Shown in pieces: positions 3,603 to 29,926 of a stretch of DNA of 64,000 nt. The translations under genes were made by a program, and so were the position numbers. Source of the stretch: Patescibacteria group bacterium (lineage in GTDB: Bacteria > Patescibacteriota > Gracilibacteria > UBA4473); assembly GCA_965660445.1 (NCBI GenBank), contig CBFIAK010000001.1, positions 288,001-352,000 of the forward strand. The letters run 5' to 3'. Positions within the stretch are counted from its first letter, which is position 1. Every line of letters begins with the position of its first letter. Under the pieces are notes generated by a model that saw only the letters and a list, made by a program, of their open reading frames with translations, made no database searches and was not told the origin of the DNA.

Positions 3603-4038
3603 TGTGGAGTTTTATGCTTCGGTGTTGAATATCAATCGTTTGGTGTATGCAATTAATACGGAAAATCGAAAACCCAGTCTTTGTGGGTGTTACCATTTGA
3701 ATATCACTATTGGGATTGAGTGTTTGAGTTTCAATTCGTTGAAGGTATTGTTCATAAATATGAGTAAATAAATCAAACGGAATAAGTTTTGTGTCTTTGT
3801 TTTCTTGAGTAAGCGTGTTGTATAAATCTTCTGCAGATACAACAAAGGTGAGTGATTCTTGTGTAGACGACGGTAGAAATTGTATGTTCCATTCAGGATA
3901 ATCAAGAGAATCAATATGTACTTTGAGGGTGTCCAGGTTTTCTCGAGCGGTTTTTTGGCTCGTTGTATCAGTCGTTTCGAATCGAGTTTCTCGTGTTTCT
4001 GATGGTTTATTTTGGTATATAAAACGAATAGAATCCAT
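3595..4038 (-). CDS. Hypothetical protein
   Basis: 147-aa ORF whose stop overlaps the msrAB start; TATAAT upstream. Confidence 0.6.
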   Translation of the reverse strand: MDSIRFIYQNKPSETRETRFETTDTTSQKTARENLDTLKVHIDSLDYPEWNIQFLPSSTQESLTFVVSAEDLYNTLTQENKDTKLIPFDLFTHIYEQYLQRIETQTLNPNSDIQMVTPTKTGFSIFRINCIHQTIDIQHRSIKLHNE

Positions 4039-4142
4039 ATGGTGGAAAAAAAATCGGTTCTATTATACACAAAAAAAAGAAAGAAATCGAGGCGTTTTGA
4101 CTTTTTTGCAAAAAGAGACAGAATACGTCTGACGTATCTTTT

Positions 4143-5936
4143 TTGATTATGAGTTTACTTGCAACGGGAATAAGAACACATACTTGTGGTGATATTCAGA
4201 AAGAATCAATCGGTTCGGCAGTTGTGTTGAGTGGATGGGTGTCTCAACGTCGTGATTTGGGGAATCTGATTTTTTTAGTGATTCGTGATCAGTATGGGAC
4301 GGTGCAAGTAGTATGTGATCCAGAAAAAACAAAAGATGTACATGCTGTTGCTGAAAAACTTCGATCAGAATGGGTTGTGCGTATCACAGGGACCGTTCAA
4401 GAAAAAGAAGATAAAACCGGAAAAGAAATACGCCCACAGTCACTTGAAGTATTAAACCAGTCGCTCACTCCTCCGTTTGAACTCAAAAATGAAGTGGATG
4501 TGAAAAATGAAGATTTGCGACTCGAATATCGGTATCTTGATTTGCGACGAGAACGTATGCAACGAAATCTATCAATGCGTCATCATCTGGTGCATTGGAT
4601 TCGGAACTATTTTTATGAACATCGGTTTACCGATATTGAAACTCCTATTTTAGTGAAAGGAACACCAGAAGGGTCGCGAGAATATATTGTGCCCAGTCGA
4701 CTTCATCCTGAAAAATTTTATGTGTTGCCACAATCTCCACAACAATTAAAACAGTTACTGATGGTGGGGGGGGTGGATCGGTATTTCCAAATAGCACGAT
4801 GTTTTCGAGATGAAGACTTGCGAGGTGATCGGCAACCTGAGTTTACTCAGTTTGAGATTGAAATGAGTTTTTGTACACAGGAAGATATATTAAACGTTAT
4901 AGAAGGATGTTTTCAAGGACTAATGGAGTTTATAAACACAAAAAAAGACGAACTTAGATGGAATATTCAACCGAAAAATTATACTCAATTTTTAGAAAAT
5001 GGACGGTTTCGACGTATCACTTGGAAAGATGCTATGACTCGGTTTGGGTCTGATAAACCTGATATGCGGTTCGGACTTGAATTGCAAGATGTTTCATCTA
5101 TTGCACACCTGTCTGGGTTTGGAGTATTCGAAAACGCTGAATATGTATCAGCGCTCTCTGTTCCAAAAGATGTACAAACGTTTTCGCGAAAAGATATTGA
5201 TACACTGACTCAACTGGCCCAACACAATGGAGCAAAAGGATTGGCGTGGTATCGATTTGGAGAAGAATCAGGAGCTATTGCGAAAAATACAACACATGAG
5301 TTTCAAAATAGACTTCAACAACAATTACAAGCTCATGATGGGGATATGGTATTCTTTGGAGCTGGAGGGTTTATTGAAGCTTGTGAACCACTCGGATCAG
5401 TGCGATTGCATATTGCTCAACAATCAAATCTTATAAATGCGACTGATTATGCGTTTGTGTGGGTGCTCGATTTTCCATTATTTGAAACCAAAAAAGATGG
5501 TAGTTTTGGATCGGCGCATCATCCATTTACTCGTCCCCACACAGAAGATATCGAAAAATTAAAAACAGACCCTTTATCAGTGTTGTCTCATGCGTATGAT
5601 ATTGTGCTGAATGGCGTTGAGTTAGGAGGTGGGTCATTGCGTATTCACCAACAGTCATTACAACATTTAATTTTTGAGGTCTTGGGTATGGATGAGGCAG
5701 AGATACAAATGAAGTTCGGACACATGATGAAAGCGTTTCAGTATGGATGTCCGCCTCATGGAGGTTGTGCGATGGGGTTAGATCGAGTGATTATGATGAT
5801 GAGCGAAGAACCAAATATTCGAGAGGTTATTGCGTTTCCTAAAAATCAGTCTGCGCAAGACCTTATGCTGGGGTCTCCATCAGCGATGCCATTGGCAGAA
5901 TTACACGAACAAAATATCGATATATTACAGCGGTGA
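4143..5936 (+). CDS. aspS: Aspartate--tRNA ligase (RRDLG suggests discriminating type)
   Basis: RTHTCG, LPQSPQ, FRDEDLRGDRQPEFTQ, GAD insert, PPHGG..GLDR. Confidence 0.97.
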   Translation: MIMSLLATGIRTHTCGDIQKESIGSAVVLSGWVSQRRDLGNLIFLVIRDQYGTVQVVCDPEKTKDVHAVAEKLRSEWVVRITGTVQEKEDKTGKEIRPQSLEVLNQSLTPPFELKNEVDVKNEDLRLEYRYLDLRRERMQRNLSMRHHLVHWIRNYFYEHRFTDIETPILVKGTPEGSREYIVPSRLHPEKFYVLPQSPQQLKQLLMVGGVDRYFQIARCFRDEDLRGDRQPEFTQFEIEMSFCTQEDILNVIEGCFQGLMEFINTKKDELRWNIQPKNYTQFLENGRFRRITWKDAMTRFGSDKPDMRFGLELQDVSSIAHLSGFGVFENAEYVSALSVPKDVQTFSRKDIDTLTQLAQHNGAKGLAWYRFGEESGAIAKNTTHEFQNRLQQQLQAHDGDMVFFGAGGFIEACEPLGSVRLHIAQQSNLINATDYAFVWVLDFPLFETKKDGSFGSAHHPFTRPHTEDIEKLKTDPLSVLSHAYDIVLNGVELGGGSLRIHQQSLQHLIFEVLGMDEAEIQMKFGHMMKAFQYGCPPHGGCAMGLDRVIMMMSEEPNIREVIAFPKNQSAQDLMLGSPSAMPLAELHEQNIDILQR

Positions 5937-6608
5937 TTGGCGAGGAATTCCGTTTGCTCGAGGATACGTGTGAGGTGTTGATTTTGTTTTTTTGATACAT
6001 ATACAGACCCGAATGTCTCCCGATGAGAGGGTGGTGTGGTATGTGTGTTGGAGTTGTCCCCCTAGTTTGGCTATTGTTGATAAGGATGTATGCAGTTCTG
6101 ATTCAATAGCAGGACCTTGATAAGCAACAAATGTTCCACCAATACGCACAAAAGGAAGTGCGTACTCTAACAGTACTCGCCAAGGAGCTAATGCACGAGC
6201 AGTAACAATATCAAATTGTTGACGAAACTCTTTTTTATGAGCGTAGTCTTCAATGCGTCCATGATGAGTTGTAATCGGTAAATGGAGTCGGTGAGTCATG
6301 TCTTGCACAGCTTTCATTTTTTTTTGGACACTATCGAGGGCATGAAACGTTGAAGAAGGAGCAAAAATAGCAAGCGGTAACACGGGAAACCCTCCACCAG
6401 AACCAAGATCTAAAATGCGTGCGTTTTGGAATGATATGTATTGTGTGGGAAGAAGAGAATCTTCGAAGTGTTTTTCGTATACGGCACTGCGATCAGAAAA
6501 GGAAGAAAGGTTTATTTTTTGGTTCCATTCGCAAAAAAGTTCAAAAAGGGATTCAAGTTGTTTGTGTTGATCTGCGCTGAGTGTCTGCAGTATGTTTTCG
6601 ATTTGCAT
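5925..6608 (-). CDS. rsmG: 16S rRNA m7G527 methyltransferase RsmG (GidB)
   Basis: WNQKINL, KHFEDS, DLGSGGGFP, ARA, YPR..G.P...PL. Confidence 0.95.
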   Translation of the reverse strand: MQIENILQTLSADQHKQLESLFELFCEWNQKINLSSFSDRSAVYEKHFEDSLLPTQYISFQNARILDLGSGGGFPVLPLAIFAPSSTFHALDSVQKKMKAVQDMTHRLHLPITTHHGRIEDYAHKKEFRQQFDIVTARALAPWRVLLEYALPFVRIGGTFVAYQGPAIESELHTSLSTIAKLGGQLQHTYHTTLSSGDIRVCICIKKTKSTPHTYPRANGIPRQSPL

Positions 6609-6684
6609 GAAAGTATGATAAAAGAGGTTTTTAAAAAAACAAAAGGTATTGTTTTGTTTTTTTTTAAAACGTATACTACAGCTA

Positions 6685-7650
6685 ATGCATATACAAGAAT
6701 CAAATATCGTGTTTTTGGAGGTAGAAGATCAAGACAGAGAGGTAGTCAAAACCCGTTTTCCAAACGCTCAAATTGATAATGGTGTTCGGGAACCCGAAGA
6801 AATTATTCGTCGATACGCAGATGCGGAAATATTGTGTCCGTTTATTTACTCGCCAATAACAGCAGATGTGATATATGGGATGCCAAACTTAAAAGGAATT
6901 GTAACTCGATCGGTCGGGTATAATCATATTGATTTAAAAGCCGCACAAGAAAGAGGGGTTTCCGTATGTAATGTGCCTGATTATGGGTCTCATGCCATAG
7001 CAGAACATGTTTTTGCGTTACTGTTGTCTTCTGTTCGATTTGTACAAGAAGGTGACGAAAGGGTTGAACTTGGATATTTTGATTTTCGGGGACTGCGAGG
7101 GCTTGCTTTGAAAGGAAAAACACTGGGTATCGTTGGACTTGGGAAGATTGGAGTGAATGTTGCACGTATTGCCTCAAAAGGCTTTCTGATGAATGTTTTG
7201 GCGTGTGATATACACGAAGACGCAGAAAAAGCTCAAGAATATGGGTTTTTGTATACCGATCAAGAAACACTGTTTCGAGAATCAGATATTATCTCCCTTC
7301 ATGCACCACTATTAGATTCAACGTATCATATGATCAATACAGAATCTATTGCGTCTATGAAAGATGGAGTAGTTCTTATTAATACCGCTCGAGGAGGTCT
7401 TATTGATACACAAGCATTATTAGAATCATTACGGTCTCGCAAAATTGCTTATGCCGCTTTGGATGTATTAGAACATGAAAAAAATATTGAGCGTCATCAT
7501 GAGTTATTACATATGAAAAATGTTGTTGTTACGCCTCATATTGCTTTTTATGCAGATGACACAATGGCAACAATGTATAGCGAAGCCTTTTTATCTATCG
7601 AATCAATTATGCGTGGTGATGGGTGTTTACATCGTGTGCAAGGTATTTAA
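6685..7650 (+). CDS. D-2-hydroxyacid (D-lactate-like) dehydrogenase
   Basis: RSVGYNHID, GLGKIG, INTARG, DVLEHE, TPHIAF; start moved to ATG 6685, 7 nt after TATACT. Confidence 0.9.
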   Translation: MHIQESNIVFLEVEDQDREVVKTRFPNAQIDNGVREPEEIIRRYADAEILCPFIYSPITADVIYGMPNLKGIVTRSVGYNHIDLKAAQERGVSVCNVPDYGSHAIAEHVFALLLSSVRFVQEGDERVELGYFDFRGLRGLALKGKTLGIVGLGKIGVNVARIASKGFLMNVLACDIHEDAEKAQEYGFLYTDQETLFRESDIISLHAPLLDSTYHMINTESIASMKDGVVLINTARGGLIDTQALLESLRSRKIAYAALDVLEHEKNIERHHELLHMKNVVVTPHIAFYADDTMATMYSEAFLSIESIMRGDGCLHRVQGI

Positions 7651-7716
7651 AGGGGTGCTTGCAATTTTGAAATCAAGTTTTTATAATTGAGTTATATTTT
7701 TTAACTTTTTATTTAC

Positions 7717-8145
7717 ATGTTTAGTGCAGATAACGGTTCTCGTAATGCCGAGGGTCTTTTGCGTACCGGTTTGGCATTGTTTCTTCTTCTTGCAGGGATT
7801 GGAAAACTAATGGGTGGTATTGGAACATTTGTAACGACTATGACAACAGGGATGTTTGCAGAATCTTTTCTTCCTATGGCACTCGTGACAGCGGTTGCTT
7901 ATATTGTTCCTGTTGCAGAAGTAGCACTTGGAGTGTGGCTTTTGAGTGGTTGGAAACGTGATTTAGGATTGTGGATTACAGGGCTTTTGTTTGTGATTTT
8001 TATTGTTGGACATTTATCAGTAGGAGATATGAATCTTCAAGGACTGTTCTTGTATCTTTTAATCACCGCTTATACAGCGACGCTTCCTGCAGAGGATGTT
8101 GTTGTGTACTCAAAATGTGTGGACTTCGAAAATAAGAAAGTATAA
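7717..8145 (+). CDS. DoxX-family membrane protein
   Basis: LLR..LA.F....G.GK and P.AE..LG..LL.G pattern; 4 TM helices. Confidence 0.8.
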   Translation: MFSADNGSRNAEGLLRTGLALFLLLAGIGKLMGGIGTFVTTMTTGMFAESFLPMALVTAVAYIVPVAEVALGVWLLSGWKRDLGLWITGLLFVIFIVGHLSVGDMNLQGLFLYLLITAYTATLPAEDVVVYSKCVDFENKKV

Positions 8146-8155
8146 AAAAATGAAT

Positions 8156-8190
8156 CTTAAAAACCCTTTTCTAAAAAAAGGGTTTTTAAG
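8156..8190 (+). terminator. Intrinsic terminator
   Basis: CTTAAAAACCCTTTT / AAAAGGGTTTTTAAG inverted repeat after the DoxX gene. Confidence 0.75.
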
Positions 8191-8292
8191 AAAAGTGTAA
8201 AAAAAGCATAAGATGAGCTCCATATCGAGTAAAGATTCTTGCAAATTGTACTCACCCATTTCATACTAGAGAGTGAATATTCACTATTTCTT

Positions 8293-10011
8293 ATGCAAAG
8301 AGCACGTTTAAAAATACTCGGACAAAGTGGATCAGGGCTTTTAACAGTTGGAGACCTATTTTCTCAAGCATTACGATCGCTTGGGTTTCAGTTATGTTCC
8401 GATCGAGAATATGCTTCTATTATTAAAGGTGGATATGGGTGTTATACAATCAATTTTGGAGAAACCACTATTCGGTCGTTGTCACAAAATGCGGATATTA
8501 TGGTTGCGATTGATAAACCGAGTTTAGAAGAGTATTACCACCAACTCGTTCCAAAAGGAAAACTTATTCATGCGTTTGAGTTGTTTGCCAGTATGAAAGA
8601 TATTATCGAGTATAATGATCATAACAATATCGAGTCTTTTTTTATTCCGTGTCATTCCATTGCGAAAGAGAATAATGGAACCAAAATTATGACCAATATC
8701 ATTCTTTTGGGAACATTAGCCAAAATATTTGGTATGAAGTATGAAACTATTGAGGCTATTGTGAGAAAAAAGTTCGAGAAAAAAGTAAATATAGTCGATA
8801 TTGTAATGGGGTGTTTACATGCTGGATATGAAGCTGGTGAAATAGGGTTTCATGTTGAGACTCCCAAACAAAAAAATGATATGAGGTTGCTGAACGGAAA
8901 TCATGCTTTAGCACTCGGGGCTTTACATGGGGGTGTTCAGTTTTATGCTGGGTATCCGATGAGTCCATCAAGCTCGATTTTAGGATACATGGCTCAGTTT
9001 GGACCAAAAGCTGATATTGTTGTTCGGCAAGTAGAAGACGAAATTACAGCAGCACAAATGGCATTAGGAGCATGTGCTGCGGGTACGCGGTCGTTAACAG
9101 CAACATCAGGTGGGGGGTTTGATTTAATGACAGAAACACTCTCTTTGGCTGGGATTTTAGAAGTCCCTTTTGTCAGTATTATTGCGCAGCGTCCCGGGCC
9201 AGCTACAGGGCTTCCTACATGGACCGCTCAAGGTGATTTAGATTTGGCTATTCATGCTGGACATGGGGAGTTTCCTCGTATTGTTATTGGGGTTTCGAAT
9301 CCGATTGATTCGTTTCGGTTAATGCAAGAGGCGCTTAATAATGCAGAAAAATATCAAGTGCCGGTTATTGTGTTAATTGAAAAAGTAGTATGTGAATCGA
9401 AGATGACGATTCCACCATTAGAACAAAATACCATTCCTATTGAGCGTTGGTTGGTAGAAGAAAAAGAATTTGAAAAAATACAGTCTTCGGATCGATACAA
9501 AATTACAGAATCAGGTGTTTCTGTGCGATGGAACCCTGGAGATTGTGAAGCGTATTATTTTGCAAACGGTGATGAACACTGGGAAATGGGAGAACTTGAA
9601 GAAGGTGAACGAGCGGGGGAGATGTATGAAAAACGAATGAGAAAACTCGAAACGATTAAAAAAGATTTACCCGCACCAAAAGTGTACGGACCAGAAACAG
9701 CGGATATTTCATTTATTGGTTGGGGAAGTTCTTTGAGTATTATGAGCGATATTATTGCTCTTTATGAATCGAGTGATGTGCGCGTAAATTACCTCCATTA
9801 TGAGTATGTATGGCCGTTGAATCGTGAATCGGCACATGATTTTTTTGAAAAAAATAAGAACGTTCATTTGATTGAGAATAATTACACAGGGCAGTTTGGA
9901 AACAAGTTAGAGTTTCATACGGAAAGTCGGTTTCAAGGACGTCTTTTGAAATGGAACGGACGACCGTTTTTCATTGAAGATGTTCAAGCTTATATTCAAA
10001 CCCATATTTAA
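8293..10011 (+). CDS. 2-oxoacid:ferredoxin oxidoreductase subunit alpha (gamma-alpha fusion)
   Basis: GNHA.A.GA, YPMSP, EDE, ATSGGGFDLM, QRPGPATGLPT; ATG 8293 preferred. Confidence 0.93.
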   Translation: MQRARLKILGQSGSGLLTVGDLFSQALRSLGFQLCSDREYASIIKGGYGCYTINFGETTIRSLSQNADIMVAIDKPSLEEYYHQLVPKGKLIHAFELFASMKDIIEYNDHNNIESFFIPCHSIAKENNGTKIMTNIILLGTLAKIFGMKYETIEAIVRKKFEKKVNIVDIVMGCLHAGYEAGEIGFHVETPKQKNDMRLLNGNHALALGALHGGVQFYAGYPMSPSSSILGYMAQFGPKADIVVRQVEDEITAAQMALGACAAGTRSLTATSGGGFDLMTETLSLAGILEVPFVSIIAQRPGPATGLPTWTAQGDLDLAIHAGHGEFPRIVIGVSNPIDSFRLMQEALNNAEKYQVPVIVLIEKVVCESKMTIPPLEQNTIPIERWLVEEKEFEKIQSSDRYKITESGVSVRWNPGDCEAYYFANGDEHWEMGELEEGERAGEMYEKRMRKLETIKKDLPAPKVYGPETADISFIGWGSSLSIMSDIIALYESSDVRVNYLHYEYVWPLNRESAHDFFEKNKNVHLIENNYTGQFGNKLEFHTESRFQGRLLKWNGRPFFIEDVQAYIQTHI

Positions 10012-21454: not shown

Positions 21455-21895
21455 ATGAAAAAAAAAGGATTTCATCTATCAGAGCTTGTGGTCTTTATGC
21501 TTTGTGCAGGAGTACTTATGAGTGTTGTGGTATGGACTCTTTCTCCTGGAACACAACTTGTGTCACAACGAAACCAGAAACGAAGTCGAGATGTACAGCG
21601 TATTCAGCGATCAATACAGGCTTATTACGAGCATTTTGGTGATTTTCCAGAAGGTATCTCAGATAGAACGTCAGAAATATGTCGTCGAAACGAACCATGG
21701 TGTGGTGATATGATCGATTTTTCGTTACTTGATGATTTGGGAATTTACCCTGATATTTCCCCTGATCCACACGTCGCATCTCGTTATGGAACCGGATATT
21801 TTATTTTAAAAAAAGGATACACTCTCACTATTATTGCTGCTGGAGCAGAAAACGGAGAAATTATAGAATCAACATCGATTTATTCTCAAGAATGA
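21455..21895 (+). CDS. Type IV pilin/GspG-like protein
   Basis: MKKKG-FHLSELVV prepilin motif; RN.KR..DV..I; P-DP. Confidence 0.8.
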   Translation: MKKKGFHLSELVVFMLCAGVLMSVVVWTLSPGTQLVSQRNQKRSRDVQRIQRSIQAYYEHFGDFPEGISDRTSEICRRNEPWCGDMIDFSLLDDLGIYPDISPDPHVASRYGTGYFILKKGYTLTIIAAGAENGEIIESTSIYSQE

Positions 21896-22470
21896 AACAC
21901 TTGGTAGCTGGTATTGATGAAGCAGGAAGAGGAGCCCTTGCTGGTCCAGTGGTTGCAGCTGCGGTTATTGTGCCTGATGATTTTGATTGTACTCTTTTGA
22001 AAGATTCGAAAGTATTGAGTCCTCGAATTCGATCAGAGGTATGTGCTTTAATTATGGCTCATTGTATGTATGGAGTCGGTATGGTGTCAGCAAAAGATGT
22101 TGATCGACTGGGTATAAAAAAAGCAACCCATGCGGCTATGAAGAAAGCACTCCATACACTTCCATCTGTTCCTCAAGAACTCTGGATTGATGGAAATGAT
22201 GGGTTTGTATTCTCAATTCCATCTTCTGATTTTGTAAGGGGAGATGTTTTGTATCCTTGTATATCAGCAGCTTCAATTATTGCAAAAACAGTAAGAGATC
22301 AGTATATGTATGAAATTGCTGAGTCGTACCCGAAGTTTCAGTTTGATTCTCATAAAGGATATGGCACAGAATTTCATAGAAACCTTCTTGAAAAAGGGGA
22401 ATATACCCCTTTTCATCGTAAAACATATCAACCCTTAAAACAAGTGCTTACCCAAGGAAAACTGTTTTAG
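21892..22470 (+). CDS. rnhB: Ribonuclease HII
   Basis: GIDEAGRG.LAGPV, DSK, AASIIAK, HKGYGT. Confidence 0.96.
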   Translation: MKHLVAGIDEAGRGALAGPVVAAAVIVPDDFDCTLLKDSKVLSPRIRSEVCALIMAHCMYGVGMVSAKDVDRLGIKKATHAAMKKALHTLPSVPQELWIDGNDGFVFSIPSSDFVRGDVLYPCISAASIIAKTVRDQYMYEIAESYPKFQFDSHKGYGTEFHRNLLEKGEYTPFHRKTYQPLKQVLTQGKLF

Positions 22471-25400
22471 AGTTTGTTCTTTTGGAGAGAAATAATAATA
22501 GGTTCTCCATCAATCAAAACAGTATCATCATGCATATTATCATCAATAGCATCACTCTTGATAATGTTTTCAGCGAGTACTTCTTGTCCGATGAGAGATG
22601 AAAATTGATGAAAACATTCTTGTAGAAGTTTTGATTGTGTGTGATAAGTGAGAGTAATACGATCAGACAAATCAAAGTTTTGTGTTTTTCGGGTGTCTTG
22701 AATGTATCGAATGAGTTCTCGAGCAAGTCCTTCAAGCAGTAAATCATGTGTAATATCCGTATCAAGGATCACGACCATGTTTTGATAACTATCAGCTTCT
22801 ATCCCTTCTGAGCAGACAAACCCTATCTCGTATTCGTTTGGTTGAATAATTTCACCTTCTATAAGGAGGGACCCATCTTTTTGCATTTCAAATCGTCCTT
22901 CTTTTCCTGCTTGAAGTATGGCTTGTACTTTTTTTCCAAGTCGAGGCCCAGCCGTTTTTGCTTGAATCCGAACAATTCGTTCAGCAATTCCTTGAAGAGA
23001 AGTAAGCGTTTCAACTTTTTTGACGTTCGCTTCTTCTGCAATAATATGAAAATCAAGCTGAATGTCTTCCGTTACTAAAAACCGAAGCCGTGATAAAGGT
23101 TGTCGAAGCTTTATTTTTTTACGAGCGCGTATACTCGCAGCTAAACGCACAATATCACGAGTGATATTGGTCTTTTTTTCAATGTCAGGTTTCATTGCTT
23201 TTTTTATAGGAATGGGAAAAGAATCTAAATGAACAGAGTCGCCTCCACCTAAATCTCGATAGAGCTGTTCGGCTAAAAATGGACATACGGGGGCCAGTAT
23301 TTTTGAAAGAGAAAGTAATACCCAATGAAGTGTTTCGTATCCAGATTGTTTGTCCTCATTCATACCAGACGCCCAAAATCGTCTTCGAGATCGTCGTAAG
23401 TGCCAGTTGTTGAGTTTATCAATGAATTCAGGAATGTGTTTGAGTGCGGATTCTAATTTATACGCGTCAAAATGAGTGCGAAATTGGTCAATAACGTATT
23501 GAAGCTCCGATAAAATCCAGATATCAAGTTCGTTTTTTGGGGTCGGAAACGGAAAGAGTACCGTGTAATCCCCTGTGGAAAGTTTTGGAAATCGAAGAAT
23601 TTCTTCATGAGAACTGATGCCATGTATATGGGACTGTAAACACCGAATCGGAGCAAGATGAGAAACTATAGCAACCGTTTGTCCATGATGTTTTTTCTGA
23701 ATGTCAGCCCAAAATGAGGCCATTCTGTCTTGAATATGAGACAATTGTTCAGTATCGGCATGAAGAATGCAATCATGTGCTGATATAAATGGTTTTCCTT
23801 CAAGTGACCCAAATGACATTTCCGATAATCGATTGTCTTCGTGTAGATCGCATTTTTGTACTTCGCTCAAGAGTTTCGCTGTTTCTTTTGCTCGCTCAAA
23901 TGGGGATGTGTAGATGTTGTCTATAGATGCATGACTCAGTGTGCGAGCAAGTTCTTTTGCTTCTTTTATCCCTGATTCAGTAAGTGCGGATGATGTGTGA
24001 ATATCTCCGTTGTAAATACCAGTTGTATTATGTTGAGCTTCAGCATGTCTTATAGCAAAAATACGTGTTGGCTTCCATTCATCAAGGTTTGCGTATGTTG
24101 AGAAAAACTGATACGTCGATTTCAATGGCAGAATCACAGATTTTAAAACTTCAGCAACACCATATTCTGAAAATCGAAGGTTTTCACCTCGTGCAACAGG
24201 AGAGTTTAATAAATAAAACCGCATTGCATCAGCTCCGTATTTGTTAAATATATGTGACGGGTCAGGATAATTTTTCTTAGATTTCGACATCTTGCTTCCG
24301 TCTTCCGCTTGAATGATTCCGTTTGTAATAACATTTTTATAAATATTTTTTCCAAACAAGGCGACGCCTAACACGTGAAGGTTATAAAACCAACATCGTG
24401 TTTGATCTAACCCTTCCGCAATAAAGTCAGCCGCAGGAAAAACCGATTGAAGTTCATAAGGCGTGGCATTTTGAATTTTATTTTCCCATGGACCAGCAGG
24501 ACGGTTTTCGTTCCAGCTTTGTATCAACTGAATTGGATGCCCGTGTGACACAATAAGAATATTTTTTCCTTCGTATCGATTATTAATATCACGAATGCAA
24601 TCGGATACTCGTTTTTCACAATCAGCAATACTTTCTCCTTGGGGAAAAGGTTTATCTATAATGTTATGACTATCAATATACGCATGGCCTTCCTCTGATG
24701 GTTTGTCATCAAAGATTCCAAAATGAACCTCTTGAAGTCGTTCGTCTTCAATAATTTCTGCTCCTGATATTTCAGCAAATAGGTGGGCTGTCTCACGAGT
24801 ACGACGGAAAGGAGACGTGAAAATAATATCAATATCTTTGTAGCGATCTCGAATATCAAGTACACTTTTTCGTCCCTTTGAAGTAATACCATATTTTTCG
24901 GCAGACTGTGTGGTGCACGAAAGAATTTCTTGTACATTGTTTTCTGCTTGTGCGTGTCGAATGACTACAAATCGGTTCTTAAAAAACCGATGATGTGGCT
25001 CAAATGGGTAATGTTGTGACGCATATGGCATAGACCCTGATTCAAACCAACAATCAAGAACTTCTGGAATACGTCGCATAGTACCTCCCGTTTCAGGGTG
25101 TGTCCATGTGAGATCATCTATAAAGTGACGATGGAGATCAGAAACAGGTTTACCGCTCAAGCGTTCAAGTTCGGCTTTACTGCCAATGACTTGGCATACG
25201 CCGGTTTTATCACATTTCCAGACAGGAATAGGAGTTCCCCAGTATCGGTTTCGAGAAATAGCCCAATCAGGAGCACTTTCGAGACCTTTTCCAAATCGAC
25301 CGTGTTTTAGATAATCAGGTATCCAGTGAATGTTTTCATTCATATCTATTAAATCAGCCTTGATGGACTGAATATCAACAAACCATGTTTTGATACCCGT

Positions 25401-26666
25401 ATACATAAGAGCACATTCAGTTCTCCAACAATGAGGATAAGAATGTCGTATTTGTGCTCTATGGAATAAGGAATGATTTTCTTTTACATATTGAATAACC
25501 CATTCGTTTGCATTATCGGTTGTGTGCTCACCAACTTCTCTATCAAATCGGAAATATTTTCCAGAGAGCTCCTTGATTGTGTCATCAAAATATCCGTTCT
25601 GATCAATTGGAGAAACGAGTGGTGCAATATCGTTTTCTTGGCATACTCGAGCATCGTCTTCCCCGAAGTTTGGAGCTAGATGAACGATTCCAGTTCCGTC
25701 AGTATCGGAAACAAAATCTCCTTTGATAACACGAAAAGCGTTCTTATGGTTTTTAAAAAACGGAAAAAGAGGTGTATAAGCCGTTCCTATCAACGATGCT
25801 CCATCAATTTTACGTTGAATATCAATGGGGTCTTTGAATATCTTTTCAAGAAGGTTTTCTGCTACAATATAAGAGAGTCCATCAATAGGTTTTGTTTGGA
25901 CGTATTGAATATCCGGATGAACTCCAAGCGCAAGATTTGAAGGTAGTGTCCATGGAGTAGTAGTCCATGCTAAAAAGAAAACAGAGACGTCTTCCCCAAG
26001 TGAGACTCGTTTATCAGTGGTTTTAAATTTAACAGTCAATGTTGGGTCATCAATGTCTTTGTAATTGAGACCGGCTTCAAAGTTCGAAAGAGGACTCCCA
26101 AGCTTTGGAGAATAAGCTACCACTTTTTCACCTTCATAAATAAGTCCTTTGTTCCATAACTGATGAAAAACCCACCAAACAGATTCCATGAATTTTGGAT
26201 CCATGGTTTTGTAATCGTCTTGAAAATCAACAAAACGCCCCATGCGCTCAACGGTGTCTTCCCATTGGTCTCTGCAGCGAAGTACTACAGAACGACATAG
26301 TTCATTAAAATTCCCAATCCCCATAGCTTCTATGCCGGGTTTTCCTCCGATTTGGTGTTCTTTTTCGACCTGAAATTCTACGGGGACTCCGTGACAATCC
26401 CAACCCCATTTTCGTTCTACGCGGTATCCTCTCATGGTTTTGTATCGAGGAATGGCGTCTTTCAAGGCTCCAGCAAGAATATGTCCGTAATGCGGTGTTC
26501 CAGTAGCAAACGGTGGGCCATCAAAGAATACAAAGGGGTTTTGTGTTGATCGAGATGAAATAGATCGTTTAAAAATGGAATGATCTCTCCAATAAGAGAG
26601 AATTTTTTCTTCTGACTGAGCAACGGTTTCTTTGGTTTGTGAACTGGGAAAAAAAGGAGTCATCAT
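22467..26666 (-). CDS. ileS: Isoleucine--tRNA ligase type 2 with two inserted histidine-phosphatase domains
   Basis: DGPPFATG.PHYGH, GWDCHG, WTTTPWTLPSN, SRNRYWGTP, KMSKS; two RHA...SP..R..ETA...VSH inserts. Confidence 0.96.
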   Translation of the reverse strand: MMTPFFPSSQTKETVAQSEEKILSYWRDHSIFKRSISSRSTQNPFVFFDGPPFATGTPHYGHILAGALKDAIPRYKTMRGYRVERKWGWDCHGVPVEFQVEKEHQIGGKPGIEAMGIGNFNELCRSVVLRCRDQWEDTVERMGRFVDFQDDYKTMDPKFMESVWWVFHQLWNKGLIYEGEKVVAYSPKLGSPLSNFEAGLNYKDIDDPTLTVKFKTTDKRVSLGEDVSVFFLAWTTTPWTLPSNLALGVHPDIQYVQTKPIDGLSYIVAENLLEKIFKDPIDIQRKIDGASLIGTAYTPLFPFFKNHKNAFRVIKGDFVSDTDGTGIVHLAPNFGEDDARVCQENDIAPLVSPIDQNGYFDDTIKELSGKYFRFDREVGEHTTDNANEWVIQYVKENHSLFHRAQIRHSYPHCWRTECALMYTGIKTWFVDIQSIKADLIDMNENIHWIPDYLKHGRFGKGLESAPDWAISRNRYWGTPIPVWKCDKTGVCQVIGSKAELERLSGKPVSDLHRHFIDDLTWTHPETGGTMRRIPEVLDCWFESGSMPYASQHYPFEPHHRFFKNRFVVIRHAQAENNVQEILSCTTQSAEKYGITSKGRKSVLDIRDRYKDIDIIFTSPFRRTRETAHLFAEISGAEIIEDERLQEVHFGIFDDKPSEEGHAYIDSHNIIDKPFPQGESIADCEKRVSDCIRDINNRYEGKNILIVSHGHPIQLIQSWNENRPAGPWENKIQNATPYELQSVFPAADFIAEGLDQTRCWFYNLHVLGVALFGKNIYKNVITNGIIQAEDGSKMSKSKKNYPDPSHIFNKYGADAMRFYLLNSPVARGENLRFSEYGVAEVLKSVILPLKSTYQFFSTYANLDEWKPTRIFAIRHAEAQHNTTGIYNGDIHTSSALTESGIKEAKELARTLSHASIDNIYTSPFERAKETAKLLSEVQKCDLHEDNRLSEMSFGSLEGKPFISAHDCILHADTEQLSHIQDRMASFWADIQKKHHGQTVAIVSHLAPIRCLQSHIHGISSHEEILRFPKLSTGDYTVLFPFPTPKNELDIWILSELQYVIDQFRTHFDAYKLESALKHIPEFIDKLNNWHLRRSRRRFWASGMNEDKQSGYETLHWVLLSLSKILAPVCPFLAEQLYRDLGGGDSVHLDSFPIPIKKAMKPDIEKKTNITRDIVRLAASIRARKKIKLRQPLSRLRFLVTEDIQLDFHIIAEEANVKKVETLTSLQGIAERIVRIQAKTAGPRLGKKVQAILQAGKEGRFEMQKDGSLLIEGEIIQPNEYEIGFVCSEGIEADSYQNMVVILDTDITHDLLLEGLARELIRYIQDTRKTQNFDLSDRITLTYHTQSKLLQECFHQFSSLIGQEVLAENIIKSDAIDDNMHDDTVLIDGEPIIISLQKNKL

Positions 26667-26671
26667 AAAAA

Positions 26672-26875
26672 ATAAGAAAATACATATATATATGTATTCG
26701 AGAGTCGTATTTAGAGGTTACGACGGTACCATCTCGAAAATTTGCTTAATTTTTTGATAACGCTCAAACAGAGAAAAACGATGGAATCTACTTTTTAAAC
26801 AATGGTGTTTAAATTTCTCTCCATTCCCGTCCCTGATATTTGGGATCGTGGGTGATTACCACTCAGCGGGATCTA
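26672..26875 (-). promoter_or_regulatory. T-box riboswitch (Ile) in the ileS leader
   Basis: Antiterminator GAGA-UGGUACC-GUCG...CGAC-UCUC (26700-26735); Stem II with GAA/AGUA S-turn (26781-26824); GCGUUA F-box-like element; AUC-containing loops. Confidence 0.85.
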
Positions 26876-27493: not shown

Positions 27494-27871
27494 ATGCGTA
27501 TAGCAAATACTACAATTCCGGCAGATAAAAGAGTGATTATTAGTTTGACTTATGTTTATGGGGTTGGTCCAAAGCGAGCGAAGGATCTTTGTGTGGCTGC
27601 AAATATTGAGGATCATGTTCGAGTGAAGGATCTCACTATTGAACAAGAACAAGCTATTCGGACGGCATTGGCTGATTTGAAGGTGCCACTAGAGGCTGAT
27701 CTGCGTCGAGAGATATCACAAAACATCAAACGATTGCAAGATATTGGGTCGTATCGAGGGTTTCGTCATCGACATCGGTTGCCGGTGCGAGGACAAAGAA
27801 CAAAAACAAATGCAAAAACTCGAAAAGGTCGAGGACGTGCAATTGCAAATAAAAAAATAGCAACTAAATAA
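27494..27871 (+). CDS. rpsM: 30S ribosomal protein S13
   Basis: YRG.RH...[16 protein letters not shown]. Confidence 0.98.
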
Positions 27872-27875
27872 TACT

Positions 27876-28256
27876 ATGGCAAAGACAACTAAAAAACGGG
27901 TGCGAAAAAGTTTTGAGCATGGGCGAGTGTATGTCGCTGCTCGATACAATAATACGATTGTAACACTTACTGATCCAGACGGAAATGTTTTGGGTTGGAG
28001 TAGTCCGGGAGCAAATGGATACAAAGGAGCTCGTCAGTCAACACCTTATGCGGGGCAGATGTCTGCAGAGAAGGTGGCAGAATTGGCACAAACGTTTGGT
28101 ATTCAGACAGTTGATGTTTTCTTGAAAGGGATGGGGCCTGGTCGTGATCAAACAGTTCGAGGTCTTATCAATAAAGGATTGGATGTGGTTTCTATTGCGG
28201 AACAAACTCGAGTGCCTCATGGAGGGTGTCGCCCAAAACGAGTGCGAAAAATTTAA
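27876..28256 (+). CDS. rpsK: 30S ribosomal protein S11
   Basis: NNTIVT.TD, STPYA, G.GPGR, PH.GCRP. Confidence 0.98.
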   Translation: MAKTTKKRVRKSFEHGRVYVAARYNNTIVTLTDPDGNVLGWSSPGANGYKGARQSTPYAGQMSAEKVAELAQTFGIQTVDVFLKGMGPGRDQTVRGLINKGLDVVSIAEQTRVPHGGCRPKRVRKI

Positions 28257-28288
28257 TTTTGATTTACTTTTAATTTACTCACTATTTA

Positions 28289-28903
28289 ATGAGATATACA
28301 GGACCAAAAGCACGACTTTGTAGACGAGAAGGTATTAACCTTTTTGGATCACCAAAATATCAGAAAATTTTGCAAAAACGATCTGGTATTCCCGGTATTC
28401 ATGGTGGTGGACGAATGGGGAAAATAACGGAATATGCACGACAATTGCGAGAAAAACAAAAAGCAAAACGAGTATATGGGTTATCTGAAAAACAATTTTA
28501 TCGATGTTTCCAAGAAGCAACTCGTCGAAAAGGGGTAACAGGAGAAAACTTGTTTGAATTATTGGAACGACGATTGGATAATGTGCTTTTTCGATCAGGG
28601 TTTGCGTTGAGTAGACCTCAGGCACGGCAGTTTGCAACACATGGTTTGTTTTTGTTAAATGGTCGACGAGTGGATATTCCTTCTATTATTGTGAATCCTG
28701 GAGATGTTATTGAAATTCGATCAAAAACAAAAGGTGCTTCTATTTTTCATAAAAATGCAGAAGAAATGAAAGATTATACTGCTCCTGATTGGTTAAAGGC
28801 TGATTCAGGAAAACTGAAAGTAGAAGTGTTAGAGTTGCCACAAGCAAAACATTTTGAGTCTTTTGTTGATACACAGCTTATTGTTGAGTTCTATTCTCGT
28901 TAA
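28289..28903 (+). CDS. rpsD: 30S ribosomal protein S4
   Basis: RYTGP, QLREKQK, LERRLDN, IVEFYSR. Confidence 0.98.
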   Translation: MRYTGPKARLCRREGINLFGSPKYQKILQKRSGIPGIHGGGRMGKITEYARQLREKQKAKRVYGLSEKQFYRCFQEATRRKGVTGENLFELLERRLDNVLFRSGFALSRPQARQFATHGLFLLNGRRVDIPSIIVNPGDVIEIRSKTKGASIFHKNAEEMKDYTAPDWLKADSGKLKVEVLELPQAKHFESFVDTQLIVEFYSR

Positions 28904-28924
28904 TTTTTTAATTTTCTTTACTAC

Positions 28925-29926
28925 ATGCATATTCTTCATCAAGAAATCGGCGCACCACAAATCAGAATCGAATCGGATTCGAAAACATCCGCACGGTTGG
29001 TGATGAATCCTCTTCCATCGGGATATGGGTATACTATTGGAAATGCATTGCGACGAGTATTGCTTTCGAGTTTGCCAGGAACAGGAATTACAGCGTTAAA
29101 GATTTCAGGTGTTACTCATGAGTATGCAACTATTACTGGAATTAAAGAAACAGTTTTTGATGTTATGCTGAACCTACGACAATTGAGACTGAAGAAACAC
29201 ACAAAGGGGGTAGAAGAAGTAGTGATTCCGTTTGTGAAATCAGGAATTATTACGGCGAAAGATTTACAAGTTTCAAGTGATATTGAAATTTTAGATCCTA
29301 CTCAGTATATCACAACATGTGATGGAGCTGATTCAAAACAAAAAATGACGATCCGTGTTGAAAGAGGGGTTGGGTATATGTTGGTTGCGAATACAGATAA
29401 TGCAAAAGAAGAAGATCCAGAGTATATGCTTATGGATGTAAATTTTTCACCCGTAACGCATGTGGAATACAAAGTAAATCCTGCGCGTGTGGGAGGAGAA
29501 ACAAATCTTCATGAATTAGAATTAGTTGTAAAAACAAATGGATCTATTGAAGCAATACAGGCTTTGAAGTTAGCAGCGAGTATGTTACAAAGCTATTTTG
29601 AGTTATTTAATAATGAAGATGCATATACTGATGAAGATTTCACAACATCTTTTGAACAATTAAAAAAGAAGAAAGAGTCAGAAGAAGCAGAGGCTTCTGC
29701 AAATCAAGAGGTGTCATTTACACCAATTGATATCTTAGGACTTTCTCAACGAACGCTGAATGCATTGGTGAATGGAAATATTAATTCTGTAGAAGAATTG
29801 ATTGCAACTCCAATGAAAACCCTAGCGCAGTTCCGAGGGTTTGGACAAAAAGCAAAAGTAGAACTTGATCAAGTTCTTATGGAACGCGGATATGTACTTC
29901 CTACTGAAAAAAAAATTGATAAATAA
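28925..29926 (+). CDS. rpoA: RNA polymerase alpha subunit
   Basis: PL..GYGYTIGNALRRVLLSS; alpha-CTD. Confidence 0.98.
   Translation: MHILHQEIGAPQIRIESDSKTSARLVMNPLPSGYGYTIGNALRRVLLSSLPGTGITALKISGVTHEYATITGIKETVFDVMLNLRQLRLKKHTKGVEEVVIPFVKSGIITAKDLQVSSDIEILDPTQYITTCDGADSKQKMTIRVERGVGYMLVANTDNAKEEDPEYMLMDVNFSPVTHVEYKVNPARVGGETNLHELELVVKTNGSIEAIQALKLAASMLQSYFELFNNEDAYTDEDFTTSFEQLKKKKESEEAEASANQEVSFTPIDILGLSQRTLNALVNGNINSVEELIATPMKTLAQFRGFGQKAKVELDQVLMERGYVLPTEKKIDK

What the first reader, a model, noticed from the sequence alone, without database searches (positions are those of the whole stretch)
23545..24995. IleRS with two separate histidine-phosphatase domains inserted
Seen: insert 1 (about 24445-24995) lies between SMPYASQHYPFE and FPAADFIAEGLDQTR in the catalytic region and has IRHAQA, SPFRRTRETA and VSHG. 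Insert 2 (about 23545-24070) lies after KMSKS at the start of the anticodon-binding domain and has IRHAEA, SPFERAKETA and VSHL. Both keep the catalytic Arg-His (RHA rather than RHG) and the second His, and they are divergent from each other. Known: CPR aaRSs are reported to carry accessory inserts; two in one enzyme (1399 aa versus roughly 1050) is unusual. Inference: domains that repeatedly target aaRS loops, possibly removing phosphates from tRNA ends or acting on nucleotide by-products.
Basis: partly seen in the sequence, partly recalled or inferred. Interest (0 to 1): 0.7.

Follow-up and report, generated by a model that had tools for sequence, protein, structure and literature searches.

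The report
IleRS with two embedded phosphatase domains
This small bacterium's only isoleucyl-tRNA synthetase has two complete histidine-phosphatase domains spliced into its loops, with every catalytic residue kept; most of its relatives share the habit and nobody appears to have explained it.

Summary
ORF 22467..26666 (-) is the genome's only IleRS (1399 aa). It carries two in-frame His_Phos_1 domains, at aa 557-742 and 867-1044, each scoring E about 1e-33. They are 31% identical and belong to two different His_Phos subfamilies. This is not an oddity or a chimera. In a 121-genome sample of the same class, 103 gave a strong IleRS match and 63 of those are first interrupted at one of three loops, sites A, B or C. 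Relatives carry one to four copies. The same genome's ValRS holds the third and last His_Phos copy. The Arg-His pair and the second His are present in 169 of 169 embedded copies. Models are confident and closest to small-molecule phosphatases (PspA, PhoE, CobC), and the synthetase core is intact. The site-B subfamily also occurs free-standing in an ileS-VOC-YbaK-like-HisPhos-ilvA cluster, but 0 of 20 other free-standing copies have such neighbours. The substrate is unknown. My reading is active phosphatases coupled to Ile/Val-tRNA synthesis (about 0.4), against tolerated passengers (about 0.3). I found no publication.

The parts
22467..26666 (-). Isoleucyl-tRNA synthetase gene, 1399 aa. Type-2 (eukaryote-like) IleRS and the only IleRS in the genome.
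   Evidence: ORF. (TIGR00392, 861.5 bits against 621.4). (tRNA-synt_1, Anticodon_1 at 1048-1192, DUF5915 at 1207-1396). (single IleRS in the 991-kb genome). (best solved relatives are eukaryote-type IleRSs). (TMt 0.90 to 1ile).
24441..24998 (-). Insert 1 (site B), aa 557-742. A His_Phos_1 domain between the WFESG...HYPFE segment and FPAADFIAEGLDQTR of the catalytic domain.
   Evidence: 116.1 bits, E 2.1e-33. (human IleRS residues 548-552 are contiguous across this point). (10-residue block pLDDT means 78-97, most 89 or more). (97% SH-aLRT clade with 16 other site-B domains and the operon-encoded free copies).
23535..24068 (-). Insert 2 (site C), aa 867-1044. A His_Phos_1 domain in the first loop of the anticodon-binding helical domain, about 70 residues after KMSKS.
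   Evidence: 119.9 bits, E 1.4e-34. (the human loop 664-691 is about 27 residues). (pLDDT 96.4, pTM 0.92). (closest to 4ij6/4ij5 PspA, 1h2e PhoE, 9mmh HFP, 6e4b CobC; TMq 0.80-0.86).
24954..24959 (-). Insert 1 catalytic Arg570-His571 (RHA). Its second His is His708, at 24543-24545.
   Evidence: motif positions. (these columns are R and H in 169 of 169 embedded copies; that call's numbering for insert 1 is 2 too low because the alignment was trimmed).
24045..24050 (-). Insert 2 catalytic Arg873-His874 (RHA). Its second His is His1003, at 23658-23660.
   Evidence: R7, H8, R59, E83, R115, H137 invariant in 43 sequences. (this copy is the only one of 89 site-C copies with both RHA and SHL).
26481..26492 (-). 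HIGH signature (HYGH, aa 59-62) of the synthetase.
   Evidence: The motif name is recalled, not tested.
24279..24293 (-). KMSKS signature (aa 792-796), lying between the two inserts.
   Evidence: The motif name is recalled, not tested.

Best explanation
Shown: the gene is a working-looking type-2 IleRS into which two whole histidine-phosphatase domains (branch 1, PhoE/CobC/PspA-like) are inserted in frame at two surface loops. They come from two different His_Phos subfamilies and both keep all catalytic side chains. The trait is lineage-wide. Most IleRSs of this Patescibacteria class carry one to four such domains at three loops, and ValRS carries one or two at the loop homologous to site A. 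In this genome the three embedded copies are the only His_Phos domains present. Inferred: the domains are active phosphomonoesterases kept by selection because they work together with the class Ia synthetase. They would form an added clean-up module, in the way the CP1 editing domain is an inserted module. My leading specific candidate is removal of a terminal 2'/3'-phosphate or pyrophosphate from the tRNA acceptor end, which blocks charging. Such groups are left by tRNases or added by toxSAS-type toxins. The second candidate is hydrolysis of a phosphorylated nucleotide by-product at the synthetase. The two divergent domains could act on different substrates or on successive steps. The substrate is not shown by anything here.
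For: Fold and catalytic competence: Pfam scores; confident models; Arg-His and the second His in 169 of 169 embedded copies, second Arg 99%, Glu 95%. Host restriction: in a domain-only HMMER search of 1.84 billion proteins I scanned 20 long or mid-length hits from the top 150. Sixteen are IleRS-type class I synthetases or fragments, three hold only His_Phos, one is His_Phos+GNAT, and no other host appeared. ValRS hosts. Recurrence: three sites; at least 8, 13 and 5 changes of state on the core tree; domain clades that mix sites and hosts, at 95-98% local support in the FastTree tree and 96% SH-aLRT for ValRS copies plus one site-C lineage in the IQ-TREE tree. Prevalence: 63 of 103 IleRSs are first broken at site A, B or C. 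Own genome: all 3 PF00300 matches are inside IleRS or ValRS, while it has its own pyrophosphatase, iPGM, enolase and PGK. Fusion-versus-operon pattern: the free His_Phos in the G091 cluster ileS-VOC-tRNA_edit-HisPhos-ilvA is most similar to site-B domains, its top 7 hits all being site B. The cluster is kept in 3 of 3 genus-g6 loci, and His_Phos-tRNA_edit adjacency recurs in genus g7. INS/YbaK-superfamily factors clear Abu-, Ser- and Thr-tRNAs including tRNA-Val and tRNA-Ile (PMC11295145, passages read). tRNA 3'-CCA pyrophosphorylation by toxSAS, with tRNA-specific variants, is documented (10.1101/2021.04.30.441581 and 10.1101/2024.07.05.602228; listing and start of abstracts only).
Against: No substrate evidence exists. 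The closest solved structures are all small-molecule phosphatases. Embedded domains are no more basic than free ones, with median net charge -2 to -4 in every group, so there is no sign of an RNA-binding surface. The operon link is narrow: 4 of 9 loci with site-B-like free copies have a tRNA_edit neighbour, and 0 of 20 other free-standing His_Phos loci in the class have IleRS, ValRS, tRNA_edit, VOC or IlvA within about 6 kb. Relatives' IleRSs also hold unrelated inserts, including a Y1 transposase and a DUF559 nuclease domain, which points to a generally insertion-tolerant scaffold. Nothing explains why only IleRS and ValRS would need such an activity. Insert 2 departs from the family at two glycines next to the catalytic histidines. 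I could not measure where the phosphatase active sites face, because no model coordinates are returned.
Confidence: 0.4

Rival explanations
1. Passenger enzymes in an insertion-tolerant scaffold. IleRS and ValRS of this class have permissive loops and collect whole genes. The phosphatases are active housekeeping enzymes that simply ride on an essential, steadily expressed protein, with no mechanistic link to aminoacylation.
For: Relatives' IleRSs also carry GNAT, NUDIX, Ser_hydrolase, AAA_33/Zeta-like, DUF559 and Y1_Tnp domains at the same or other loops. Eleven of 103 IleRSs are broken in the CP1/N-terminal part, and three of those genomes have no PF00300 match at all. Structural neighbours are small-molecule phosphatases. 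There is no basic shift in charge. None of 20 other free-standing copies has a synthetase or editing neighbour.
Against: It does not explain why every host found is IleRS or ValRS. It does not explain why up to four copies per protein all keep the catalytic residues. It does not explain the ileS and tRNA_edit operon neighbourhood of the site-B subfamily.
Confidence: 0.3
2. A metabolic phosphatase tied to threonine/isoleucine supply, for example a PspA-like phospho-amino-acid phosphatase feeding Thr or Ser to IlvA, fused to the synthetase that uses the end product.
For: The best structural match is the PspA phosphoserine phosphatase. The free site-B-type copy sits directly upstream of an equivalog-level IlvA (580.6 bits against 421), with overlapping start and stop codons.
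Against: tblastn at 1e-5 found no IlvA in the window's genome. PspA equivalog scores are far below the cut-off: 57.5 and 89.3 against 350. ValRS has no obvious link to this route. Three or four copies per protein are hard to justify. The roles of PGM and pyrophosphatase are already filled by other genes.
Confidence: 0.12
3. A cis-acting protein phosphatase or regulator. The domain would remove an inhibitory phosphate from the synthetase itself or from a partner, as SixA, Sts-1 and PGAM5 act on proteins (those examples are recalled).
For: The domain is small (about 178-186 aa against 203-211 aa for PhoE-like enzymes), which suggests a trimmed cap. There are weak SixA matches (35.6 bits).
Against: The SixA score is below its cut-off of 74.5. 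SixA-like structures are not among the top Foldseek hits. No kinase partner was identified.
Confidence: 0.06
4. A structural spacer that has lost catalysis, or an assembly or annotation artefact.
For: Insert 2 has RHA and SHL in place of the usual RHG and SHG and sits on a long branch.
Against: All catalytic side chains are kept in both inserts and in 169 of 169 copies. RHA is common in free enzymes. A separate assembly spans the gene with 0 differences. The same architecture is found in many records from several sources.
Confidence: 0.04

Closest known systems
CP1 editing domain of class Ia synthetases (IleRS, ValRS, LeuRS)
   Same: It is a whole hydrolytic domain inserted into a loop of the Rossmann-fold catalytic domain, and it works on the tRNA 3' end alongside the synthetic site (domain layout described in PMC11685878, passages read). 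The window's IleRS keeps it (Foldseek TMt 0.90 to 1ile).
   Different: CP1 is universal, ancient and an ester hydrolase. The His_Phos inserts are confined to one class, vary in number and site, have a different fold, and would do phosphoryl-transfer chemistry.
NCBIfam NF040702, 'isoleucine--tRNA ligase, N-acetyltransferase domain-containing'
   Same: It is a curated recognition that IleRSs with an inserted enzyme domain exist. Several relatives here carry both GNAT and His_Phos (P0004, P0009, P0028 and others).
   Different: The window's protein scores 261.2 bits against a cut-off of 1999 and has no GNAT domain. I found no NCBIfam model or paper for the His_Phos form.
Free-standing PhoE / CobC / PspA / HFP-type histidine phosphatases (PDB 1h2e, 6e4b, 4ij5, 9mmh)
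   Same: Same fold and catalytic residues: TMq 0.80-0.86 and 25-27% identity. Insert 2 is 33-40% identical to many free 170-220 aa relatives.
   Different: The insert is about 25-30 residues shorter and lies inside another enzyme. It passes no NCBIfam equivalog cut-off on its own.
Bifunctional RNase H / acid phosphatase (NCBIfam NF005567)
   Same: It is another fusion of a branch-1 histidine phosphatase with an enzyme of nucleic-acid metabolism. The inserts match its phosphatase half at 68-73 bits.
   Different: That is an end-to-end fusion, not an insertion, with a different partner. The scores are far below the cut-off of 326.
INS/YbaK-superfamily trans-editing factors (ProXp-x, ProXp-ST1/2)
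   Same: They are small single-domain enzymes without RNA-binding domains that clean the acceptor end of tRNAs, including tRNA-Ile and tRNA-Val (PMC11295145). A distant member is the direct operon neighbour of the site-B-type free phosphatase.
   Different: Different fold and chemistry. Only gene neighbourhood in two genera links them. The window's genome has no PF04073 match.

Membership tests
Isoleucyl-tRNA synthetase (TIGR00392 equivalog; type 2, eukaryote-like) | Whole-protein score over the curated cut-off | tested here: met
   861.5 bits against 621.4.
Isoleucyl-tRNA synthetase (TIGR00392 equivalog; type 2, eukaryote-like) | HIGH and KMSKS signatures, plus the CP1 editing domain | tested here: met
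   HYGH at 59-62 and KMSKS at 792-796. The core superposes on 1ile (TMt 0.90) and on the fungal IleRS structures (TMt 0.70-0.84). Motif names are recalled.
Isoleucyl-tRNA synthetase (TIGR00392 equivalog; type 2, eukaryote-like) | Type-2 C-terminal domain, and closest relatives of the eukaryote type | tested here: met
   DUF5915 at 1207-1396. The best PDB sequence hits are 9w01, 8wnd, 7d5c, 8c8u and 1ile.
Isoleucyl-tRNA synthetase (TIGR00392 equivalog; type 2, eukaryote-like) | Aminoacylation of tRNA-Ile | not testable with these tools
   It is the only IleRS in a genome rated 100% complete, and tRNA-Ile(GAU) is present, so activity is expected.
Histidine phosphatase superfamily, branch 1 (Pfam PF00300) | Score over the Pfam gathering cut-off for each insert alone | tested here: met
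   116.1 and 119.9 bits against 21.7.
Histidine phosphatase superfamily, branch 1 (Pfam PF00300) | Catalytic Arg-His, second Arg, Glu and second His | tested here: met
   Present in both inserts. RHA rather than RHG is a common variant.
Histidine phosphatase superfamily, branch 1 (Pfam PF00300) | The alpha/beta fold of the superfamily | tested here: met
   Insert 2: pLDDT 96.4, with Foldseek E 6e-15 to 4ij6 and TMq 0.86. Insert 1 was modelled only within the 1-1200 model and was not searched separately.
Histidine phosphatase superfamily, branch 1 (Pfam PF00300) | Phosphatase or mutase activity | not testable with these tools
   Needs an enzyme assay.
Cofactor-dependent phosphoglycerate mutase | Equivalog score, and a need for it in the genome | tested here: not met
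   dPGM_arch scores 78.3 and 90.1 against 225. The genome has a cofactor-independent PGM-type gene in a 536-aa frame.
Alpha-ribazole phosphatase CobC (TIGR03162) | Equivalog score for a single domain | tested here: not met
   73.9 and 104.2 against 162.9. The whole protein reaches 164.3 only by adding its two domains.
Phosphohistidine phosphatase SixA (TIGR00249) | Equivalog score | tested here: not met
   Insert 2 scores 35.6 against 74.5. Insert 1 is not listed.
Intein or homing-endonuclease insertion | Hint/intein or endonuclease domains, or flanking repeats | tested here: not met
   Pfam lists only synthetase and His_Phos families at E up to 0.01. Only short, chance-like repeats occur around the inserts. 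Protein splicing itself was not tested.

The most novel reading that the evidence does not exclude
Class Ia synthetases of this bacterial class have gained a third catalytic activity beside synthesis and editing. The embedded histidine phosphatases would heal the tRNA acceptor end on the enzyme by removing a 2'/3'-phosphate or pyrophosphate, placed by toxSAS-like toxins or left by tRNases. That would make IleRS and ValRS self-contained tRNA repair-and-charge machines, and the GNAT, NUDIX, kinase and esterase inserts in relatives would be further modules of the same toolkit.
Probability: 0.15. Interest if true: 0.9.

Novelty: new variant of a known kind. Interest (0 to 1): 0.7.

Why it matters
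Aminoacyl-tRNA synthetases are among the most conserved enzymes known. Their accessory domains (editing domains, appended domains in eukaryotes) have repeatedly revealed new biology. Here an entire class of small-genome bacteria has repeatedly built a phosphatase with intact catalytic residues into the catalytic and anticodon-binding parts of two essential synthetases, with up to four copies per protein. In the genome studied these are its only histidine phosphatases. If the phosphatase serves aminoacylation, it would be a new kind of quality control or tRNA repair. If it does not, these enzymes show how far the core of an essential enzyme tolerates whole-gene insertions, and how reduced genomes package functions. 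Either answer can be reached with standard enzymology on a protein that can be expressed from this sequence.

Tried and rejected
PGM or pyrophosphatase replacement: rejected. The genome has PF00719 (168 bits), a 536-aa Metalloenzyme/iPGM-type frame, enolase and PGK.

Assembly chimera: rejected.

Mobile-element scars: only short, chance-like repeats at the insert borders.

RNA-binding adaptation: no charge difference between embedded and free domains.

General operon link: 0 of 20 other free-standing His_Phos loci have IleRS, ValRS, tRNA_edit, VOC or IlvA within about 6 kb by tblastn at 1e-5. The four site-B-like free loci outside family f1, and G246, also lack them.

Own genome: no VOC, YbaK-like or IlvA homologue by tblastn and no PF04073 match. 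It has one long RelA/SpoT-type frame of 696 aa and no short toxSAS-like one. Its tRNA set is ordinary, with 36 genes.

Naming the free-standing relatives: none of the 6 single-domain proteins scanned passes an NCBIfam cut-off.

Geometry of the phosphatase active sites relative to the tRNA: not obtainable. The fold tools return no coordinates, and the passages read from PMC11685878 give no residue ranges. Complex prediction was not used, because no protein-protein claim is made.

Literature: I found no paper on histidine phosphatase or PGM-family domains in IleRS or ValRS in these searches: 'isoleucyl-tRNA synthetase' + 'histidine phosphatase' + 'insertion' (0 papers); 'aminoacyl-tRNA synthetase' / 'Candidate Phyla Radiation' / 'inserted domain' (36 papers holding at least 2 of the 3 terms, 15 listed, none relevant); 'tRNA synthetase' + 'phosphoglycerate mutase' + 'Gracilibacteria'; 'IleRS' + 'His_Phos_1'; 'isoleucyl-tRNA synthetase' + 'Patescibacteria' (2 resistome papers). 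PMC13114784 does not mention these families. Subscription journals and supplementary files were not searchable.

Expression: no RNA holder is listed for this stretch.

The place of insert 2 in the domain tree is unsettled. It is on a long branch in FastTree and in an unresolved fork of the 99% clade in IQ-TREE.

Full report
What is there. The window holds a 1399-aa open frame at 22467..26666 on the minus strand. It matches the ileS equivalog TIGR00392 at 861.5 bits against a cut-off of 621.4. Pfam finds the class I catalytic domain, Anticodon_1 (1048-1192), the type-2 C-terminal DUF5915 (1207-1396) and two stretches of His_Phos_1. Cut out and scanned alone, insert 1 (aa 557-742, window 24441-24998) scores 116.1 bits and insert 2 (aa 867-1044, window 23535-24068) scores 119.9 bits, against a gathering score of 21.7. 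The two inserts are 31% identical.

Is it real DNA? GC content is even across the gene. A separate Logan assembly of run X1, labelled a marine plankton metagenome and possibly the source sample, spans 22300-26800 in one 50,965-base contig at depth 18.5 with 0 differences. More telling, ten other proteins from other records show the same two-insert layout. I reject an assembly chimera.

Where the inserts sit. Aligned to solved IleRSs, insert 1 falls where human cytoplasmic IleRS runs straight through (residues 548-552). Insert 2 replaces a loop of about 27 residues (human 664-691) between the first two helices of the anticodon-binding region. An AlphaFold2 model of residues 1-1200 is confident (mean pLDDT 89.3, pTM 0.82). 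Both inserts are discrete alpha/beta domains with 10-residue block means mostly 88-97 and lowest values of 78 and 81. The core superposes on T. thermophilus IleRS with TMt 0.90 and on the fungal IleRS structures with TMt 0.70-0.84. Insert 2 folded alone gives pLDDT 96.4. Its closest solved structures are small-molecule phosphomonoesterases: PspA phosphoserine phosphatase 4ij6/4ij5, PhoE 1h2e, the riboflavin-pathway HFP 9mmh and CobC 6e4b, with TMq 0.80-0.86. Those proteins have 203-211 residues against 178 here.

How common it is. A search with aa 545-1060 returned 120 listed proteins, and all of them are IleRSs that carry PF00300. Where sources name them, the names are Candidatus Gracilibacteria, Peregrinibacteria or Altimarinota. 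I mapped the His_Phos copies in 122 IleRSs against flanking core segments and found three insertion sites. Site A lies between the WG-PIPVW segment and WFESG. Site B is the site of insert 1. Site C is the site of insert 2. The layouts are C only 57, A only 16, B only 12, A+C 17 (one with a split hit), B+C 11 including the window, A+B+C 5, and tandem A+A 4. One fragment has four copies. That set was chosen by likeness to the query, so I also ran an unbiased survey. In 121 genomes drawn evenly from the class (at least 80% complete), 103 have a strong ileS match. In 26 the match is uninterrupted (frames 923-1088 aa). In 41 the first break is at site A, in 5 at site B and in 17 at site C. Eleven break inside the CP1/N-terminal part and 3 are cut by contig ends. 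Among the 92 rows without in-frame TGA, 62 frames are at least 1150 aa, 21 at least 1380 and 3 at least 1540. Of the 150 listed PF00300 matches in the same genomes (279 in all), 70 lie in frames over 1150 aa and 10 in frames of 901-1150 aa. An enlarged IleRS is the majority state in this class.

ValRS too. The window's genome (991,330 bases, 5 contigs, rated 100% complete) has exactly three PF00300 matches: the two inserts, and one inside a 1041-aa ValRS at C1:178290-181415, which is outside the window. There the domain (aa about 432-606) replaces a loop of about 27 residues of T. thermophilus ValRS (420-447), at the position homologous to site A. Four more ValRSs with one or two copies were found. 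The genome has one IleRS only and no free-standing histidine phosphatase.

Are they enzymes? Across 169 embedded copies (89 site C, 46 site A, 28 site B, 6 ValRS), the Arg-His pair and the second His are present in all 169. The Asn is at 99%, the second Arg at 99%, and the two Glu columns at 95% and 96%. RHA instead of RHG occurs in 14 of 169 embedded and 12 of 62 free copies, so it is an ordinary variant. The window's insert 2 is the only one of 89 site-C copies with both RHA and SHL, and it lies on a long branch, so it may be somewhat relaxed. Neither insert reaches any NCBIfam equivalog cut-off alone (CobC 73.9 and 104.2 against 162.9; archaeal dPGM 78.3 and 90.1 against 225; PspA 57.5 and 89.3 against 350; SixA 35.6 against 74.5). 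They are generic PhoE/CobC-like phosphatases rather than mutases. The genome has its own pyrophosphatase, cofactor-independent PGM, enolase and PGK, so the inserts are not filling those gaps.

Origin and dynamics. A domain-only HMMER search of 1.84 billion representatives gave 10,512 hits at E up to 0.001. Beyond the embedded copies, insert 2 is 33-40% identical to many free proteins of 170-220 aa. Of 20 long or mid-length hits scanned, 16 are IleRS-type synthetases or fragments, 3 hold only His_Phos and 1 is a His_Phos-GNAT protein. No other host was seen. In a FastTree tree of 272 domains, site labels cluster strongly but not as one clade per site. One clade (98%) holds all 28 site-B and 15 site-A copies. 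Another (96%) holds 72 site-C copies. Another (95%) mixes 16 site-C, 12 site-A and all 6 ValRS copies. An IQ-TREE tree of 81 rows puts insert 1 in a 97% clade and insert 2 in the other major clade at 99%. On an IleRS core tree with insert columns left out (115 rows; 7 short proteins dropped), parsimony needs at least 8, 13 and 5 changes for sites A, B and C. The window's enzyme groups with two other B+C enzymes (100%) inside a set of 17 that is mostly C only. These are FastTree or quick-search trees of short, old domains, so only the well-supported statements should be trusted. Together they indicate repeated gain, loss, duplication and re-insertion, including between IleRS and ValRS.

A link outside fusion. 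In G091, a genome of the same family, an IleRS with a site-C copy is followed by four ORFs with overlapping stops and starts: a glyoxalase-fold protein, a tRNA_edit (YbaK/INS superfamily) protein, a free 191-aa His_Phos, and IlvA (580.6 bits against 421). That free phosphatase is most similar to site-B embedded domains. Its top seven hits are all site B, and it is 34% identical to the window's insert 1 against 27% to insert 2. It falls inside the 97% clade with insert 1. The cluster is kept in the two other genus-g6 loci although the phosphatase is only 51-52% identical. In genus g7 (G082) the phosphatase again abuts a tRNA_edit gene, in the other order and without ileS nearby. INS-superfamily factors are known to clear Abu-, Ser- and Thr-tRNAs, including tRNA-Val and tRNA-Ile (PMC11295145, sections 4.1.5 and 4.2.1 read as passages). 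So the same phosphatase lineage is either an operon partner of ileS and a trans-editing factor, or part of IleRS itself.

Limits of that link. Only 4 of 9 loci with site-B-like free copies show the tRNA_edit neighbour. None of 20 other free-standing His_Phos loci from other families of the class has IleRS, ValRS, tRNA_edit, VOC or IlvA within about 6 kb. Embedded domains are not more basic than free ones. Relatives' IleRSs also hold GNAT, NUDIX, Ser_hydrolase, AAA_33/Zeta-like, DUF559 and Y1 transposase domains, which suggests a scaffold that tolerates many inserts.

Reading. The shown facts are an intact type-2 IleRS with two complete histidine-phosphatase domains that keep every catalytic residue, as part of a class-wide and recurrent trait that also affects ValRS. 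The inference I favour (about 0.4) is that these are active phosphomonoesterases working with the synthetase as an added clean-up module. The leading candidate substrate is a phosphate or pyrophosphate blocking the tRNA acceptor end. Such blocks are documented for toxSAS toxins, some of them tRNA-specific (10.1101/2021.04.30.441581 and 10.1101/2024.07.05.602228; listing and start of abstracts only). A phosphorylated nucleotide by-product is the second candidate. The main rival (about 0.3) is an active passenger enzyme with no mechanistic tie. A Thr/Ile-supply phosphatase (about 0.12), a protein phosphatase (about 0.06), and a dead spacer or artefact (about 0.04) follow. I could not measure where the phosphatase active sites point, because no coordinates are returned.

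Novelty. NCBIfam has a model for IleRS with a GNAT insert (NF040702), which this protein does not match (261.2 against 1999). Automatic annotations of some relatives list the domains. Five literature searches and one paper check found no description of histidine-phosphatase inserts in IleRS or ValRS. Subscription journals and supplements were not searchable. I rate it a new variant of a known kind, namely synthetases with accessory inserted domains. It is of high interest because of its prevalence, its copy number and its position inside the catalytic core.

Noticed in passing
Own genome G000:C1:178290-181415 (-), outside the window (locus L003:115-3237:-): The ValRS of the same genome (1041 aa) carries a His_Phos_1 domain (101.7 bits) between WGHRIPVW and DTWFSS. 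Four other ValRSs have one or two copies.
   Followed up: yes
Relatives' IleRSs P0004, P0077, P0111, P0117: Other whole domains are inserted in IleRS: GNAT at site B, AAA_33/Zeta-toxin-like P-loop kinase at site C, NUDIX, DUF559 nuclease and Y1 (IS200-like) transposase domains in the CP1 region, and a Ser_hydrolase domain. IleRS in this class seems to collect enzyme domains.
   Followed up: partly
Genomes G015, G075, G103: Their IleRS frames are 1237-1273 aa and the best ileS match starts only at profile position 292-305, yet they have no PF00300 match. So a different, unidentified insert of about 200 aa sits in the CP1/N-terminal part.
   Followed up: no
P0269 (363 aa): A protein with His_Phos_1 followed by a GNAT domain, the same pair that is co-inserted in some IleRSs. 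It could be a true free fusion or a piece of an IleRS broken by in-frame TGA in a code-25 genome.
   Followed up: no
Domain alignment columns 12, 41, 141; 11 rows with TGA inside the ileS match: Trp stands at otherwise invariant Gly columns in a few database proteins, and many in-frame TGAs occur in some relatives' IleRS. This fits relatives that read TGA as Gly and were translated with TGA=Trp. The window's own genome shows no such TGAs in these genes.
   Followed up: partly
L008 (G091:C1:775500-786500), ORFs 2907-9277: A conserved cluster, ileS - glyoxalase-fold protein - YbaK-like tRNA_edit - His_Phos - IlvA, with overlapping stops and starts. The role of the glyoxalase-fold protein, and of IlvA next to ileS in a 1.3-Mb genome, is unexplained.
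   Followed up: partly
G000:C2:10465-11265 (-): The enolase match is reported with one TAG inside it, in a 420-aa open frame. This may just be the alignment running past the gene end, and I did not examine it.
   Followed up: no
G000:C1:174799-175134 (+): The genome's single RelA/SpoT-family gene (696-aa frame) lies about 3 kb from the His_Phos-bearing ValRS. The adjacency may be chance.
   Followed up: no
Window 27494-29926 (+) and 21892-22470 (+): By eye, ileS is flanked by ribosomal-protein-like and RpoA-like ORFs upstream and by a convergent RNase HII-like ORF downstream, so it seems to stand alone rather than in an operon like that of G091. These names are recalled from the look of the translations and were not tested.
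   Followed up: no
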